A stretch of DNA of 6,492 bases from a virus. Its lineage: Duplodnaviria > Heunggongvirae > Uroviricota > Caudoviricetes. Both the position numbers and the translations under genes were made by a program. Where the stretch lies: positions 1-6,492 of the IMG/VR virus record IMGVR_UViG_3300029080_000025; one strand, given 5' to 3'. The notes under the pieces were generated by a model, which saw nothing but the letters and a program-made list of their open reading frames with translations, did not search any database and was not told the origin of the DNA. This document shows positions 908 to 6,492 of the stretch, piece by piece; position 1 is the first letter of the stretch; the number at the start of each line of letters is the position of its first letter.

Positions 908-1437
908 TTATTTAATTATTCCGCATGCCAGTCTTGCGCCCCCACCCCCCAGAGGAGCAGGTGAATCGGANNNNNNNNNNNNTTATCCCCTCCGGCATGA
1001 ATCATGATCGCCCGTTCTTTTATCTGGCTTATTTTTTTTATTTTTGGACTCAGAACCGGGTTTTCTGCATTTCCTTCTGAGTTGACATAGAGTGCTGGTA
1101 GATCACCCAGATGGCCCTCCGGATTGTACGGCCCAAGATGTTTATTTGTTTGTTCAGGATCATAATGCCCACCGGCAGCAAGAGCTGGCACTTTTTTTCC
1201 ATTAATCAGACCGGGATCACAACTGGCATTTTCATGGATATGAAAGCCATGTAACCCTGGTGGTAGTTCTTTCAGATGAGGAGTGAACAGCAATCCGTAG
1301 CTGGTTTCTGAAATAGTTATTTCCCCTATATTTTTCCCTACTCCTTCTGAGGAAACGAGATTTACAGGGATCGTCATTGTATCAGCCATTACGGCTCCAC
1401 TAAGTAGCGCAGTTACAGCAAGTATTTTTTTTATCAT
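908..1437 (-). CDS. sodC: Periplasmic copper/zinc superoxide dismutase (SodC family), prophage cargo; reading frame interrupted by an N-run at 971-982
   Basis: Reverse-strand ORF starting at ATG 1435-1437. It encodes a signal-peptide-like N-terminus (MIKKILAVTALLSGAVMA) and Cu/Zn-SOD hallmark motifs (GFHIHENASC, PALAAGGHYDP, GHLGDLP, MIHAGGD). After the N-run the ORF-track frame is wrong. The adjacent frame reads SDSPAPLGGGGARLACGIIK and stops at TAA (rc of 908-910), the expected SodC C-terminus including the disulfide cysteine. I therefore place the true 3' end at 908 rather than 916. Confidence 0.85.
971..982. other. Run of 12 ambiguous bases (assembly gap or masked bases) inside sodC
   Basis: Literal n characters at 971-982. 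The flanking codons show the real missing length must be 1 mod 3 for sodC to be intact, whereas 12 is 0 mod 3, so the N-run length is probably arbitrary. Confidence 0.95.
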
Positions 1438-1570: not shown

Positions 1571-4500
1571 ATGGGTAAAGGTGGCACTAAGGGGCATACC
1601 CCGCGCGAAGCGAAGGACAACCTGAAATCATCCCAGCTGCTGAGCGTGATAGACGCCATCAGTGAAGGGCCGATTGAAGGTCCGGTGGACGGATTAAAAA
1701 GTGTGCTGCTGAACAGTACGCCGGTGCTGGACAGTGAGGGGAATACCAATATCTCCGGTGTCACGGTGGTGTTCCGGGCAGGTGAGCAGGAGCAGACACC
1801 GCCGGAGGGATTTGAATCCTCCGGTTCAGAAACCGTTATCGGTGCAGAATTAAAATATGACAATCCGCTCACCCGGACCATCACGTCGGCAAACATCGAC
1901 CGTCTGCGCCTGACCTTCGGTGTGCAGGCACTGGTGGAAACCACTTCAAAGGGGGACCGGAATCCGTCGGAAGTTCGCCTGCTGGTTCAGATACAACGTA
2001 ATGGTGGCTGGGTGACGGAAAAAGACATCACCATTAAGGGCAAAACCACCTCACAGTATCTGGCCTCGGTGGTGGTGGATAATCTGCCGCCGCGACCGTT
2101 CAGTATCAGGATGCGCAGGATGACGCCGGACAGCACCACAGACCAGTTGCAGAACAAAACGCTCTGGTCGTCATACACCGAAATTATCGATGTGAAACAG
2201 TGCTACCCGAACACGGCACTGGTCGGCGTGCAGGTGGACTCTGAGCAGTTCGGCAGCCAGCAGGTGAGCCGTAATTATCATCTGCGCGGGCGCATTCTGC
2301 AGGTGCCGTCGAACTATAACCCGCAAACACGGCAATACAGCGGTATCTGGGACGGAACGTTCAGGCCAGCGTACAGCGACAACATGGCCTGGTGTCTGTG
2401 GGACATGCTGACCCACCCGCGCTACGGCATGGGGAAACGTCTTGGTGCGGCGGATGTTGATAAATGGGCGTTGTATGCCATCGGTCGGTACTGCGACCAG
2501 TCGGTACCGGATGGCTCTGGCGGCACGGAGCCGCGCATCACCTGTAATGCGTACCTGACCACACAGCGCAAGGCGTGGGATGTGCTCAGTGATTTCTGCT
2601 CGGCGATGCGCTGTATGCCGGTATGGAACGGGCAGACGCTGACGTTCGTGCAGGACCGGCCATCGGATAAGGTGTGGACCTATAACCGCAGTAATGTGGT
2701 GATGCCGGATGATGGCGCGCCGTTCCGCTACAGCTTCAGCGCCCTGAAGGACCGCCATAATGCCGTTGAGGTGAACTGGATTGACCCGGACAACGGCTGG
2801 GAGACGGCAACAGAGCTTGTGGAGGACACGCAGGCCATTGCCCGTTACGGTCGTAACGTCACGAAGATGGATGCCTTTGGCTGTACCAGCCGGGGGCAGG
2901 CACACCGAGCCGGGCTGTGGCTGATTAAAACAGAACTGCTGGAAACGCAGACCGTGGATTTCAGCGTGGGTGCAGAAGGGCTTCGCCATGTGCCGGGAGA
3001 CGTCATTGAAATCTGCGATGATGACTATGCGGGTATCAGCATCGGTGGTCGCGTGCTGGCGGTGAACAGCCAGACCCGGACGCTGACGCTCGACCGTGAA
3101 ATCACGCTGCCAGCCTCCGGCACCACACTGATAAGCCTGGTCGACGGGACGGGGAGTCCGGTCAGCGTGGTGGTCCAGTCCGTCACCGACGGCGTGCAGG
3201 TGAAAGTGAGCCGGGTTCCTGACGGCGTTGCCGGATACAGCGTGTGGGGGCTGAAGCTGCCGACGCTGCGCCAGCGCCTGTTCCGCTGCGTGAGTATCCG
3301 TGAGAACGACGACGGCACGTACGCTGTCACTGCCGTGCAGCATGTGCCTGAAAAAGAGGCTATCGTGGATAACGGGGCGCACTTTGACGGCGACCAGAGC
3401 GGCACGGTGAATGGTGTCACGCCGCCAGCAGTGCAGCACCTGACCGCAGAAGTCTCCGCAGACAGCGGGGAGTATCAGGTGCTGGCGCGCTGGGACACGC
3501 CGAAGGTGGTGAAGGGGGTGAGCTTTATGCTTCGCCTGACCGTGGCAGCGGACGACGGCAGTGAGCGGTTGGTCAGCACGGCCCGGACGACGGAAACCAC
3601 ATACCGCTTCACGCAACTGGCGCCAGGGAACTACAGGCTGACAGTCCGGGCGGTAAATGCGTGGGGACAGCAGGGCGACCCGGCGTCGGTATCGTTCAGG
3701 ATTGCCGCACCGGCAGCGCCGTCACAGATTGAGCTGACGCCGGGCTATTTTCAGATAACCGCCACGCCGCATCTTGCCGTTTATGACCCGACGGTACAGT
3801 TTGAGTTCTGGTTTTCGGAAAAGCGGATTACCGATATCAGGCAGGTTGAAACCACAGCCCGCTATCTTGGCACGGGGATGTACTGGATAGCCGCCAGTAT
3901 CAATATCAAACCGGGCCATGATTATTACTTTTATATCCGCAGCGTGAACACCGTTGGCAAATCGGCATTCGTGGAGGCTGTCGGTCAGGCGAGCGATGAT
4001 GCGGAAGGTTACCTGGATTTTTTCAAAGGCCAGATAACCGAATCCCATCTCGGCAAGGAGCTGCTGGAAAAAGTCGAGCTGACGGAGGATAACGCCAGCA
4101 AACTGGAGGAGTTTTCGAAAGAGTGGCAGGACGCCAACGATAAGTGGAATGCCATGTGGGGCGTCAAAATTGAGCAGACCAAAGACGGCAAACATTATGT
4201 CGCGGGTATTGGCCTCAGCATGGAGGACACGGAAGAAGGCAAGCTGAGCCAGTTTCTGGTTGCCGCTAACCGTATCGCGTTTATTGACCCGGCAAACGGG
4301 AATGAAACGCCGATGTTTGTGGCGCAGGGCAATCAGATATTTATGAACGACGTGTTCCTGAAGCGTCTGACGGCCCCGACCATTACCAGTGGTGGAAATC
4401 CACCGGCATTTTCCCTGACACCGGACGGGCGGCTGACGGCGAAAAACGCTGATATCAGCGGTAACGTGAATGCGAACTCCGGGACGCTCAACAATGTCAC

Positions 4501-4984
4501 GATAAGTGAGAACTGTACGATTAAGGGCATGCTGGAGGCGACCCAGGTCAGAGGGGATTTCGTTAAAGCTGTATCAAAAGCCTTCCCGAAAAAAGTCGGT
4601 ACGTGGGGTAACACGGAAACGCCAGACGGGACGGTTACAGTCACCATCAGCGATGATCATAACTTTGACCGTCAGATTATTATCCCGCCCATTATCTTTA
4701 ACGGTATAGCGTATACCGATCCGGGAAGTGGTAATAACCCGGGAGGTACAAGGTACACGGGTTATGGATTTGAAGTTCGCAAAAACGGCGTATTAATCGC
4801 ATCCAGAGAAACTAAAGGGGCCATTCCCGGTAGTTACAGTGCGGTTATTGATATGCCGAGTGGGCGAGGTAGCGTCACTCTGGAGTTTAAGATTTACCAG
4901 AAAGGCAATCAGGGGGCAGGCAATATCACCGACTGTACGGTGATTGTGACCAAAAAAGCGGCTTCCGGCATCAGTATCCGTTGA
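1571..4984 (+). CDS. J: Phage host specificity protein J (central tail fibre / tail tip protein)
   Basis: 1137-aa ORF. The N-terminal and central regions ([54 protein letters not shown]...; ...[39 protein letters not shown]...) closely match my recollection of lambda gpJ (1132 aa), including the fibronectin-III-like middle region. The position downstream of K and I is as in lambda. Confidence 0.95.
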
Positions 4985-5005
4985 AATATTTATAACCCTA
5001 ATAAC

Positions 5006-5031
5006 GGGCGCCAGAAATGGCGCCTTTTTTA
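5006..5031 (+). terminator. Rho-independent terminator downstream of J (tJ-like)
   Basis: GC stem ggcgcc (5007-5012) / ggcgcc (5019-5024) with loop agaaat, followed by tttttt (5025-5030). It lies 22 nt after the J stop codon. Confidence 0.6.
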
Positions 5032-5045
5032 TTTGTGGAGTGAGT

Positions 5046-6098
5046 ATGGCAGTACAGATTTCAGGTGTACTGAAAGATGGTGCAGGTAAGCCGATACAAA
5101 ACTGCACCATTCAGCTAAAGGCCAGACGTAACAGCACCACGGTGGTGGTGAACACAGTGGCCTCAGAAAACCCGGATGAAGCCGGGCGTTACACAATGGA
5201 CGTTGAGTACGGTCAGTACAGCGTCATTCTGTTGGTGGAGGGATTTCCGCCGTCACATGCCGGGACCATCACCGTGTATGAAGATTCTCAGCCGGGTACG
5301 CTGAATGATTTTCTCGGTGCCATGACGGAGGAGGATGCCCGGCCGGAGGCACTGCGCCGTTTTGAACAGATGGTGGAAGAGGCAGCGCGTCACGCTGAGG
5401 AGGCGAAGAAGAATGCCGGAGAGGCAGAGACGTCAGCGAGGAATGCGGGTATATCAGTCGGCCAGGCGGAAAAGAGTGCAGTAAATGCTGACACTTCAGC
5501 AGGGGAGGCATCGGAGTCAGCCCGGCAGGCGGCAGAAAGTGCAGCCTCAGCAAAGCAGTCAGAGGATGCGTCCTCGTCCTCGGCTTCTGCGGCCGCTCAA
5601 AAAGCCAGTGAGTCATCACAAAGTGCAGCAGAAGCTGAATTGTCAAGAAAGACGGCAGAAAGTGCAGCCGGTAATGCATCCAGGGATGCAACGACCGCAG
5701 CAGAAAAAGCCCGGGAGTCAGCAGAAAGCGCACAGTCAGCGGAACAAAGCAGGATAGCGGCGGAAGAGGCCGTAAACCGAATCCCCACCGTGGTGGGACC
5801 TCCCGGGCCAAAGGGGGAACAGGGGCCCGCTGGCCCTCAGGGGCCGAAGGGAGACCCGGGCGAGACACAAATCCGTTTTCGTCTGGGGCCGATGAGCATT
5901 ATTGAGACAAACAGCTATGGCTGGTTCCCGGATACAGATGGTGCGCTCATCACCGGACTGACCTTTCTTGACCCCAAAGATGCCACACAGGTTCAGGGGG
6001 TGTTTCAGCATTTGCAGGTCAGATTTGGTGACGGGCCGTGGCAGGATGTTAAGGGGCTGGATGAAGTGGGCAGTGATACAGGCAGAACAGGAGAATGA
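5046..6098 (+). CDS. stf: Side tail fibre protein (lambda Stf-like N-terminus, Ala/Ser/Glu-rich shaft, collagen-like Gly-X-Y segment, short distinct C-terminal domain)
   Basis: ORF ending at TGA 6096-6098. I prefer ATG 5046 (GGAG at 5037-5040, 5-nt spacing) over the in-frame GTG at 5040 because MAVQISGVLKDGAGKPIQNCTIQLKARRNSTTVVVNTVASENPDEAGRY... then matches the recalled lambda Stf N-terminus (MAVKISGVLKDG...). It is much shorter (350 aa) than lambda Stf (774 aa). Confidence 0.85.
   Translation: MAVQISGVLKDGAGKPIQNCTIQLKARRNSTTVVVNTVASENPDEAGRYTMDVEYGQYSVILLVEGFPPSHAGTITVYEDSQPGTLNDFLGAMTEEDARPEALRRFEQMVEEAARHAEEAKKNAGEAETSARNAGISVGQAEKSAVNADTSAGEASESARQAAESAASAKQSEDASSSSASAAAQKASESSQSAAEAELSRKTAESAAGNASRDATTAAEKARESAESAQSAEQSRIAAEEAVNRIPTVVGPPGPKGEQGPAGPQGPKGDPGETQIRFRLGPMSIIETNSYGWFPDTDGALITGLTFLDPKDATQVQGVFQHLQVRFGDGPWQDVKGLDEVGSDTGRTGE
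5370..5790 (+). repeat. Low-complexity Ala/Ser/Glu-rich coding repeats within stf (imperfect tandem AESA-type units)
   Basis: Recurring nucleotide motifs gcagaaagtgcag / gcagaaagcgcac / gcggaaaagagtgcag encode repeated AESAA-like peptide units (EAARHAEEAKKNAGEAETSARNAG...SESARQAAESAASAKQSEDASSSSASAAAQKASESSQSAAEAELSRKTAESAAGNAS...). Boundaries are approximate. Confidence 0.6.
5796..5864 (+). repeat. Collagen-like Gly-X-Y triplet repeat within stf
   Basis: The in-frame codons read GPP GPK GEQ GPA GPQ GPK GDP GE, i.e. seven consecutive G-X-Y triplets plus a trailing Gly-Glu, on a GC-rich stretch (gggccaaagggggaacaggggcccgctggccctcaggggccgaagggagacccgggc). Confidence 0.8.
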
Positions 6099-6099
6099 C

Positions 6100-6369
6100 A
6101 TGAACATACTAAAAAAACTTATGCAGCGTCTGTGCGGTTGCGGAAAGCATGATGGCCGTGAACACGGGCAGTCACTTACAGCACAACTGCGACTGGGGCC
6201 GGCAGACATCCTGGAGTCAGATGAGAATGGTATTATCCCGGAGCAGGCCAGGGTAATCACGCAGGTGGTGATACTGGATGCGGATAAAAAGCAGATACAG
6301 TGCGTGGTAAGACCGCTGCAAATTCTGCGTGCTGACGGGAAGTGGGAAAATATTGGCGGGATGAAGTAA
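6100..6369 (+). CDS. Hypothetical 89-aa protein, unknown function, immediately downstream of and closely coupled to stf
   Basis: ATG at 6100 with AGGAG at 6089-6093 (6-nt spacing), ending at TAA 6367-6369. Translation: MNILKKLMQRLCGCGKHDGREHGQSLTAQLRLGPADILESDENGIIPEQARVITQVVILDADKKQIQCVVRPLQILRADGKWENIGGMK. The ORF track extends this frame back to 5968, but that part overlaps stf and has no better start signal. I recognise no family. Confidence 0.55.
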   Translation: MNILKKLMQRLCGCGKHDGREHGQSLTAQLRLGPADILESDENGIIPEQARVITQVVILDADKKQIQCVVRPLQILRADGKWENIGGMK

Positions 6370-6383
6370 CCCGACAGCTTCAC

Positions 6384-6409
6384 AAAACCGGAGTCCGGCT
6401 CCGGTTTTT
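6384..6409 (+). terminator. Rho-independent terminator downstream of the small ORF
   Basis: Stem aaaaccggag (6384-6393) / ctccggtttt (6399-6408) with loop tccgg; the T-run is ttttt at 6405-6409. It lies 15 nt after the stop codon. Confidence 0.6.
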
Positions 6410-6492
6410 GTGTTGCAATGTCCGGGGGATATTTGTTAAGTAGATGACAGAGGAGCTAATTTAACAGGGAGATAAATTAATGCCGATAAATC

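What the first reader, a model, noticed from the sequence alone, without database searches (positions are those of the whole stretch)
5046..6098. Unusually short Stf-like fibre with a collagen-like segment and a distinct small C-terminal domain; no tfa chaperone gene follows
The N-terminal 100 residues match the lambda Stf tail-attachment region, but the protein is 350 aa against 774 aa for lambda Stf. After the Ala/Ser/Glu-rich shaft comes a collagen-like G-X-Y stretch and then a C-terminal domain of about 75 residues (TQIRFRLGPMSIIETNSYGWFPDTDGALITGLTFLDPKDATQVQGVFQHLQVRFGDGPWQDVKGLDEVGSDTGRTGE) unlike the lambda Stf distal domain. In lambda, stf is followed by tfa, the fibre assembly chaperone. 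Here the downstream gene is an 89-aa ORF with no recognisable Tfa character. Either this fibre folds without Tfa, or the fibre module is a truncated or recombined remnant.
Basis: partly seen in the sequence, partly recalled or inferred. Interest (0 to 1): 0.55.

Follow-up and report, generated by a model that had tools for sequence, protein, structure and literature searches.

The report
Collagen-type prophage side tail fibre
This is an ordinary, already described kind of prophage side tail fibre (the "EPclA" collagen-like fibre of pathogenic E. coli and relatives) with a shortened collagen segment; its own end domain folds it into a trimer, so the lambda Tfa helper is not needed, and the small gene after it is a separate copy of that end domain.

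Summary
The ORF is real (5046-6098, 350 aa) and intact. It has the EPclA architecture of Ghosh et al. 2012. The parts are the lambda-Stf collar domain (PF08400, about 90% identical to lambda Stf over residues 1-117), a 116-aa Ala/Ser coiled coil, eight G-X-Y triplets, and PfC (PF06820). PfC is not an unknown tip: experiments showed it is an autonomous trimerisation domain that re-nucleates the collagen helix in vitro.

The short length comes from a clean in-frame loss of 29 triplets relative to the 437-aa form, with the crossover in a 17-nt direct repeat. The identical protein occurs on six independent contigs, one of them a complete chromosome. Collagen lengths in relatives run from 12 to 111 aa in steps of three. 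So this is neither an artefact nor a truncation.

No tfa follows. The late operon ends at a terminator, and type III effector cargo comes next.

It is under purifying selection and always follows PfC-tipped fibres. Its counterpart in phage Sp5 is non-essential, and its role is unknown.

Verdict: already known, low interest.

The parts
5006..5035 (+). Intrinsic-terminator-like hairpin plus T-run between gpJ and the fibre gene. It occupies the place where lom sits in lambda and in many relatives.
   Evidence: 8-bp stem, 6 GC pairs, TTTTTTATTTG tail. (dG -18.8 kcal/mol, z -3.7). Function as a terminator is inferred; late transcripts in lambdoid phages are Q-antiterminated (established knowledge).
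5046..6098 (+). Side tail fibre gene, 350 aa, EPclA architecture (PfN-PCoil-Col-PfC).
   Evidence: phrog_3279, 1.6e-134.
5046..5444 (+). PfN, the Stf N-terminal collar (tail-attachment) domain plus the start of the helix, aa 1-133.
   Evidence: PF08400 1e-68. PDB 9E7M/9MGH Stf collar 4.5e-52. Lambda orf-401 alignment. In Ur-lambda, 12 copies form a collar at the gpV/gpM junction (PMC12617516).
5445..5795 (+). PCoil, an Ala/Ser/Glu-rich segment (aa 134-250). [quoted passage not shown]
   Evidence: Aligns without gaps to the PCoil of the 437-aa relative. Shown to be a coiled coil and a trimerisation module for EPclA in PMC3368898. Inferred here by homology.
5796..5867 (+). Col, the collagen-like segment, 8 G-X-Y triplets (aa 251-274). 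It is contracted by 29 triplets relative to the 437-aa form.
   Evidence: The crossover lies inside the 17-nt direct repeat CCTCAGGGGCCGAAGGG. The Pfam Collagen hit is only 19.8 bits, below the 27.2-bit cut-off, because the stretch is so short.
5871..6062 (+). PfC (Phage_fiber_C) distal globular trimerisation domain, aa 276-339, followed by an 11-aa tail.
   Evidence: PF06820 1.2e-34, profile positions 1-64 of 64. PfC trimerises alone and nucleates Col refolding (PMC3368898). The monomer AF2 model is low confidence (pLDDT 65).
6100..6369 (+). 89-aa stand-alone PfC paralogue. Its ATG lies 1 nt after the fibre stop codon, with a GGAG 8 nt upstream, so it is probably translationally coupled.
   Evidence: PF06820 5e-35. 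phrog_576 89/89, 2.2e-59. 35% identity to the fibre PfC. dN/dS 0.21-0.30 against divergent homologues. The homologue ORF68 of Sp5 is non-essential (PMC5155283).
6381..6412 (+). Intrinsic terminator closing the fibre and PfC-only gene pair, at the end of the tail module.
   Evidence: dG -23.1 kcal/mol, z -5.2, followed by UUUUUGUGUU. Downstream in relatives come T3SS effector genes.

Best explanation
The gene encodes an EPclA-type trimeric side tail fibre of a lambdoid siphovirus prophage. The host is probably Escherichia albertii or a close relative.

How it most likely works:
1. The N-terminal collar domain docks the fibre on the tail tip, as lambda Stf does. This is inferred from about 90% identity to the solved collar.
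2. [quoted passage not shown] So no Tfa-type chaperone is needed. This was shown for the 437-aa protein, whose PfC is 98% identical, and is inferred here.
3. The PfC knob at the far end is the probable receptor-binding tip. This is inferred.

The 350-aa length results from an in-frame deletion of 29 G-X-Y triplets between short direct repeats. It is one step in a family-wide accordion of collagen lengths. By calculation from rise per residue, it should shorten the fibre by about 25 nm.

The following 89-aa gene is a separately translated, selectively maintained paralogue of the PfC tip. It travels with PfC-tipped fibres and its role is unknown.
For: Domain architecture: PF08400 plus 8 G-X-Y triplets plus PF06820. 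The protein aligns end to end at 98% identity with a 437-aa relative, apart from one 87-aa gap inside the collagen region.

Origin of the deletion: the junction lies in the 17-nt repeat CCTCAGGGGCCGAAGGG, whose copies are 261 bp apart.

Recurrence: the identical 350-aa protein is on 6 contigs, namely a complete 4.78-Mb chromosome, four gut-metagenome assemblies and a draft genome. At least 5 further 90%-identity clusters are also 350 aa with a 24-aa Col. Col ranges from 12 to 111 aa in steps of 3.

Published biochemistry on EPclA: it is a trimer, Col is a true triple helix, PCoil and PfC are trimerisation modules, and purified Col-PfC refolds quickly (PMC3368898).

Collar function: Ur-lambda cryo-EM (PMC12617516) and PDB match.

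A PfC-tipped fibre was localised to the tail end and shown to be essential in Sp5 (PMC5155283).

No tfa. Terminator after the small ORF.
Against: Nothing was tested for this 350-aa variant itself. An 8-triplet collagen segment is far shorter than the 37 triplets studied, and it may not form a stable triple helix.

Whether this prophage is inducible, and whether the fibre is incorporated into virions, is unknown.

Receptor binding by PfC has never been shown directly for EPclA. The BamA/YaeT link is for EPclB of short-tailed Stx phages, as cited in PMC3368898.

The conserved PfC-only gene might still be an assembly partner, so 'no helper needed' is proven only for folding in vitro.
Confidence: 0.87

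Rival explanations
1. The 89-aa PfC-only protein is the functional counterpart of Tfa or gp38. It would be a tip-cognate partner that binds or caps the fibre's PfC trimer, either as an assembly factor or as the actual adhesin. On this reading the fibre does have a helper, just not a Tfa-family one.
For: It sits exactly where tfa sits in lambda and is probably translationally coupled to the fibre.

The downstream partner co-varies with the tip on the same PfN-PCoil-Col scaffold. A PfC tip is followed by the PfC-only gene. A Peptidase_S74 tip is followed by a Gp38_N protein plus DUF4376. The lambda tip is followed by Tfa.

The pairing is kept in a divergent lineage with a different shaft (L009) and in Citrobacter rodentium remnants.

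It is under purifying selection, dN/dS 0.21-0.30.
Against: ORF68, the 89-aa homologue in Sp5, was classed as non-essential for morphogenesis and lysogenisation (PMC5155283).

EPclA and PfC trimerise and refold without it (PMC3368898).

The co-variation could simply reflect recombination that swaps whole 3' cassettes.

There is no structural or interaction data.
Confidence: 0.25
2. The short fibre is a decaying, non-functional remnant in a defective prophage. The deletion removed most of the collagen rod and the gene is on its way to loss.
For: The deletion removes 29 of 37 triplets. Many EHEC-type prophages are defective, and frameshifted EPclA copies exist (Table 2 of PMC3368898; P0174 and P0253).
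Against: The deletion is in frame. Every other residue-level feature is intact, at 98% identity to full-length forms. Neighbouring I, J and the small ORF are intact. The same class recurs in several sequence clusters and in two species. Even shorter Col classes (12-15 aa) are represented by dozens of sequences (P0172, 36 members).
Confidence: 0.07
3. The 350-aa length is an assembly artefact, a collapse of the collagen repeat or a chimera between several near-identical prophage copies.
For: The region is repetitive, with five GPQGPKG-type repeat copies. Genomes carry a median of about 8 related copies. The window contains a run of N. None of the 25 best complete E. coli RefSeq matches has the short junction.
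Against: The identical protein is present in a finished chromosome and in four independently assembled metagenomes made with different assemblers. The shared repeat is only 17 nt, below usual k-mer sizes. Other 350-aa clusters at 91-94% identity exist.
Confidence: 0.03

Closest known systems
EPclA, the EHEC prophage collagen-like protein A (e.g. ECs2717 of O157:H7 Sakai; Ghosh et al. 2012, PMC3368898)
   Same: It has the same four-part architecture (PfN-PCoil-Col-PfC) and the same 116-aa PCoil. Outside the collagen gap it is 98% identical to a 437-aa member. It has the same genomic position after gpJ and the same 89-aa gene after it.
   Different: The collagen domain is 24 aa (8 triplets). It is 111 aa in the studied protein and 63-144 aa in the EPclA examples tabulated in that paper. 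The host appears to be E. albertii-like rather than EHEC. There is no lom between J and the fibre.
Bacteriophage lambda side tail fibre Stf (orf-401/orf-314) with its chaperone Tfa
   Same: It has the N-terminal collar domain (about 90% identity over residues 1-117), followed by an Ala/Ser-rich trimeric helical shaft. The locus position downstream of J is the same.
   Different: It has no Pf2 repeats and no gp37-like distal domain. Collagen plus PfC replace them. There is no tfa, and the downstream ORF is unrelated to Tfa. Length is 350 aa against 774 aa.
Sp5/933W tail fibre ORF67 (EPclB, ECs1228) and ORF68 (Mondal et al. 2016, PMC5155283)
   Same: It is a PfC-tipped collagen-containing fibre followed immediately by an 89-aa PfC-only ORF. 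ORF67 was shown at the tail end and is essential. ORF68 is non-essential.
   Different: [quoted passage not shown] Here the tail module is lambda-like (I, J) and the fibre is the single-Col EPclA type.
EPclD-type fibres with a Peptidase_S74 intramolecular-chaperone tip (Shigella and E. coli; P0211, P0222)
   Same: The PfN-PCoil-(short)Col scaffold is about 90% identical over 78% of the query. This includes a 27-aa Col in S. boydii.
   Different: The tip (PF13884) and the downstream partner genes (Gp38_N, DUF4376) are different.

Membership tests
EPclA collagen-like prophage fibre (Ghosh 2012) | N-terminal PfN domain (PF08400) | tested here: met
   1e-68, residues 1-133 covering profile positions 1-133 of 134.
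EPclA collagen-like prophage fibre (Ghosh 2012) | Low-complexity Ala/Ser PCoil between PfN and Col (116 aa in most members) | tested here: met
   Gap-free alignment to the PCoil of a 437-aa member. 250 residues precede Col, as in the main class. Coiled-coil conformation itself was not tested.
EPclA collagen-like prophage fibre (Ghosh 2012) | Single uninterrupted (G-X-Y)n collagen domain | tested here: met
   Eight perfect triplets at aa 251-274. The Pfam Collagen score of 19.8 is below the 27.2 cut-off because of the short length.
EPclA collagen-like prophage fibre (Ghosh 2012) | C-terminal PfC domain (PF06820) | tested here: met
   1.2e-34, profile positions 1-64 of 64.
EPclA collagen-like prophage fibre (Ghosh 2012) | Forms a trimer with a collagen triple helix | not testable with these tools
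   Only single-chain prediction was available, and the models were low confidence.
Lambda Stf side tail fibre | StfN collar domain that docks on the tail tip | tested here: met
   4.5e-52 to PDB 9E7M/9MGH chain. BLASTP 4e-79 to lambda orf-401.
Lambda Stf side tail fibre | Pf2 repeats and a gp37-like distal receptor-binding region | tested here: not met
   No PF03406 or other distal-domain hit. BLASTP similarity to lambda Stf ends near residue 160.
Lambda Stf side tail fibre | Followed by the tfa chaperone gene | tested here: not met
   The downstream ORF has no Tfa Pfam hit and no similarity to lambda Tfa. No such gene lies in 10 kb downstream in L002 or in L001.
Stand-alone PfC protein (phrog_576; Sp5 ORF68 type), for the 89-aa ORF | About 89 aa, made of a short N-terminal segment plus a complete PF06820 domain, encoded immediately after a PfC-tipped fibre | tested here: met
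   phrog_576 89/89, 2.2e-59. PF06820 5e-35. Same arrangement in L001-L007, L009 and L010-12.

The most novel reading that the evidence does not exclude
The conserved PfC-only 89-aa protein is a new kind of fibre partner that arose by duplication of the fibre's own tip. It would dock on, or co-assemble with, the PfC knob and so take the role that Tfa or gp38 plays for other tips, as assembly aid, distal adhesin or host-range modifier. The tip and its 'mini-tip' would then be exchanged together as one cassette. The rare in-frame Col-to-mini-tip fusions (P0063) and the hybrid P0242 would show that the two copies can also swap.
Probability: 0.2. Interest if true: 0.5.

Novelty: already known. Interest (0 to 1): 0.15.

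Why it matters
It matters little as a discovery. The fibre type, its domains, its Tfa-independent trimerisation and the 89-aa companion ORF are all in the literature and in Pfam/PHROGs.

It is useful as annotation. The gene should be called an EPclA-type side tail fibre with an 8-triplet collagen rod, and the next gene a stand-alone PfC-domain protein.

Two open questions remain modestly interesting. First, what does the PfC-only protein do? It is present in thousands of E. coli, E. albertii and Citrobacter prophages and Stx phages. Second, does the accordion-like variation in collagen length (12-111 aa) tune fibre reach and host range of the phages that move Shiga toxin and type III effector genes?

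Tried and rejected

2. Profile search of PfC against 1.84 billion representative proteins. There were only 91 hits, mostly fragments and chimeras of the same E. coli-type sequences. The multi-stretch hits in large proteins turned out to be SprB or CarboxypepD_reg repeat proteins and were dismissed as repeat or compositional matches.

3. Programmed frameshift or fusion of the fibre with the small ORF. The small ORF is in the +1 frame. The 494-aa fused proteins in the database (P0174, P0175) arise from loss of one T in a T6 run (GFFQ to GFFS). This window has GTGTTT there and so has no slippery run. Rejected for this locus.

4. Homologous recombination between the two PfC copies as a tip-switch. 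Their DNA shares only a 12-nt match, so RecA-type exchange is unlikely. The fusion P0063 (L008) begins at a contig edge of a draft assembly and may be a microhomology deletion or a chimera.

5. Lipoprotein or superinfection-exclusion reading of the small ORF. The conserved L-x-G-C motif was considered and rejected because no hydrophobic h-region precedes the Cys (sequence inspection).

6. Assembly artefact. Rejected, see the rival explanations.

Full report
**Setting**

The window is the distal end of a lambda-like tail module. It contains:
- the 3' end of a K-type C40 peptidase gene;
- gpI (194-865);
- a Cu/Zn superoxide dismutase gene on the opposite strand (916-1437);
- gpJ (1571-4984, 1137 aa, with all the J domains);
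- the fibre ORF (5046-6098);
- an 89-aa ORF (6100-6369).

The chromosomal flank of the complete genome that carries the identical fibre is only about 85% identical to E. coli nfrA/ybcH/envY. Many close protein relatives are labelled Escherichia albertii. The host is therefore probably E. albertii or a near relative. This is an inference.

**Checking the observation**

The ORF is as described. The ATG at 5046 is preceded by GGAG and gives MAVQISG....

Pfam finds three things:
- PF08400 phage_tail_N, residues 1-133, 1e-68;
- a weak Collagen match at 251-272;
- PF06820 Phage_fiber_C, residues 276-339, 1.2e-34.

Residues 1-94 match the solved lambda Stf collar domain (PDB 9E7M/9MGH, 4.5e-52). Direct BLASTP against lambda orf-401 shows near-identity to about residue 117 and only compositional similarity after that. 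The collagen stretch is eight perfect triplets, GPPGPKGEQGPAGPQGPKGDPGET.

No tfa follows:
- The 89-aa ORF has no Tfa-family Pfam hit.
- It has no BLASTP similarity to lambda Tfa.
- A strong terminator follows it (dG -23.1 kcal/mol, z -5.2).
- In relatives the next genes are type III secretion effectors (NleG, a HECT-type E3 ligase, NleC, an OspG-type kinase) and then chromosomal genes.

**What it is**

The four-part architecture is exactly the "EPclA" type defined by Ghosh et al. 2012 (PMC3368898). EPclA consists of PfN, PCoil, Col and PfC, and it occurs in many copies in the lambdoid prophages of O157:H7 and other strains.

That paper showed the following for the 437-aa form:
- The protein is a dumbbell-shaped trimer.
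- Col is a true collagen triple helix (Tm 42 C).
- PCoil is a trimeric coiled coil.
- PfC by itself is a trimer.
- Purified Col-PfC regains its triple helix immediately on cooling, so PfC nucleates folding.

So the "distinct small C-terminal domain" is a named and experimentally characterised trimerisation module. The absence of tfa is the normal state for this family.

The fibre type is common. DNA related to the fibre region (window 4985-6492) matches 4847 of 5426 complete E. coli genomes, and 693 of them cover at least 80% of it. It also matches 396 phage records, including many Stx-converting phages.

**Why it is short**

Aligned with the closest complete-genome relative (437 aa, 98% identical), the only length difference is one 87-aa gap inside Col.

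At the DNA level the window joins the first and last copies of a 17-nt direct repeat, CCTCAGGGGCCGAAGGG. In the long form these copies lie 261 bp apart. This is a clean in-frame contraction of 29 triplets.

It is not an assembly artefact. The identical 350-aa protein is encoded on six independent contigs: a finished 4.78-Mb chromosome (CP117678.1), four human-gut metagenome assemblies and one draft genome. All have the same neighbours.

It is not unique either. At least five other 90%-identity clusters are 350 aa with 250 residues before a 24-aa Col. Across 120 relatives Col ranges from 12 to 111 aa in steps of three. Shorter proteins of 338-342 aa and 297 aa also exist. Ghosh et al. already noted that Col lengths differ by multiples of three and PCoil lengths by multiples of seven, and they list a 27-aa Col in a Shigella fibre.

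From 0.286 nm rise per collagen residue, the contraction should shorten the rod by about 25 nm. This is a calculation, not a measurement.

The 89-aa ORF is a full-length match to the same PF06820 domain (5e-35). It is 35% identical to the fibre's own tip (6e-13) and is a complete match to phrog_576 (89/89, 2.2e-59).

- Its ATG is one base after the fibre's stop codon, with a GGAG 8 nt upstream.
- Close (>85% identical) 89-aa forms dominate the hits across E. coli and E. albertii, with thousands of member sequences. A 78-aa form about 75% identical occurs in Citrobacter rodentium.
- A 60%-identical homologue exists, and dN/dS against divergent copies is 0.21-0.30, so it is a real gene under selection.
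- Mondal et al. 2016 (PMC5155283) had already noted the equivalent 89-aa ORF68 after the fibre gene of Stx2 phage Sp5. They classed it as non-essential, found no frameshift signal, and suggested it might be a reservoir for tip variation.

**The small gene tracks the fibre tip, not the shaft**

- A divergent lineage with a different shaft, lacking PfN and collagen, still has a PfC-like tip followed by a PfC-only gene (L009).
- Fibres with the same PfN-PCoil-Col scaffold but a Peptidase_S74 tip are instead followed by a Gp38_N protein and a DUF4376 protein.
- Lambda's tip is followed by Tfa.

This co-variation fits a tip-specific partner role. It fits equally well with recombination that exchanges whole 3' cassettes. 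I rate the partner idea at about 0.2-0.25.

**Mechanism, with status of each step**

1. Attachment. Twelve StfN collar domains (four trimers) ring the gpV/gpM junction in Ur-lambda (PMC12617516). This is inferred here from about 90% identity.
2. Trimerisation and rod formation by PCoil and PfC. This was shown for EPclA (PMC3368898). It is inferred here, with the caveat that 8 triplets have not been tested.
3. Receptor contact by the PfC knob. This is inferred from its position. It is supported indirectly by immuno-EM localisation of the PfC-tipped Sp5 fibre at the tail end and by its essentiality.
4. Role of the 89-aa protein. Unknown.

**What failed**

- An exhaustive profile search found only 91 hits in 1.84 billion representatives. 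The family is very narrow, which limits the depth of any alignment.

**Verdict**

It is an already described fibre type with an ordinary repeat-number variant. "Folds without Tfa" is the supported reading, and "truncated remnant" and "artefact" are not supported. Interest is low. The only loose end of some value is the function of the tip-paralogue gene.

Noticed in passing
window 916-1437 (- strand); N run at 971-983: A Cu/Zn superoxide dismutase gene (sodC, PF00080) sits on the opposite strand between gpI and gpJ as a moron. It is absent from the closest E. coli relative (L001), where I is followed directly by J. The gene contains 13 Ns in the window.
   Followed up: partly
window 4985-5045: There is no lom/ail gene between J and the fibre, although lambda and most E. 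coli relatives have one there. Only a 61-nt spacer with a terminator-like hairpin is present (5006-5035, dG -18.8 kcal/mol).
   Followed up: partly
L008 1-291 (protein P0063): In a draft-assembly contig the collagen region runs in frame straight into the small-ORF-type PfC (…GERGPADILESDENG…). The fibre's own PfC and the small ORF's N-terminus are deleted, with about 14 nt of overlap at the junction. This could be a real tip replacement or an assembly chimera. The contig starts 3 nt before it.
   Followed up: partly
proteins P0174/P0175 (494 aa), P0242 (92 aa): The database holds fibre and small-ORF fusion proteins created by loss of one T in a T6 run inside PfC (GFFQHL to GFFSIC). It also holds a hybrid with the small-ORF N-terminus joined to the fibre-type PfC. 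The window has GTGTTT at that site, so the slip-prone run is absent here.
   Followed up: partly
window 6100-6180 (aa 1-27 of the 89-aa ORF); L009 735-800; L010 6001-6050: The N-terminal extension of the PfC-only protein keeps a conserved L-x-G-C / C-x-C motif (LCGCGK, CLFGCDK) ahead of the PfC domain. A helix is predicted at residues 3-12. The segment is too hydrophilic for a lipoprotein signal. Possibly it forms an inter-chain disulphide or a metal site. Unexplained.
   Followed up: no
L013-L016 (about 5322-6293 in L013/L015, about 4057-4857 in L016): Fibres with the same PfN-PCoil-Col scaffold but a Peptidase_S74 tip are followed by a 170-aa Gp38_N-domain protein and a 70-aa DUF4376 protein instead of the PfC-only gene. 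The tip and its downstream partner appear to be exchanged as one cassette.
   Followed up: partly
window 6413-6492; L001 8700-8855; L002 13236-13347: The sequence after the terminator matches the leader upstream of NleG-family effector genes in relatives. In L002 an OspG-type kinase gene is inserted between the small ORF and this leader. So the effector cargo differs between otherwise 99.5% identical prophages. The ATG at window 6481 is not annotated as a gene start in L001.
   Followed up: partly
L009 110-748: A 212-aa fibre-like protein ends in a divergent PfC-like domain and lacks both PfN and collagen, showing that PfC is used on at least two different fibre scaffolds. By eye it also has a motif resembling a carbohydrate-binding module (YYIGSICTHHGESYQSL…W); this was not tested.
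   Followed up: no
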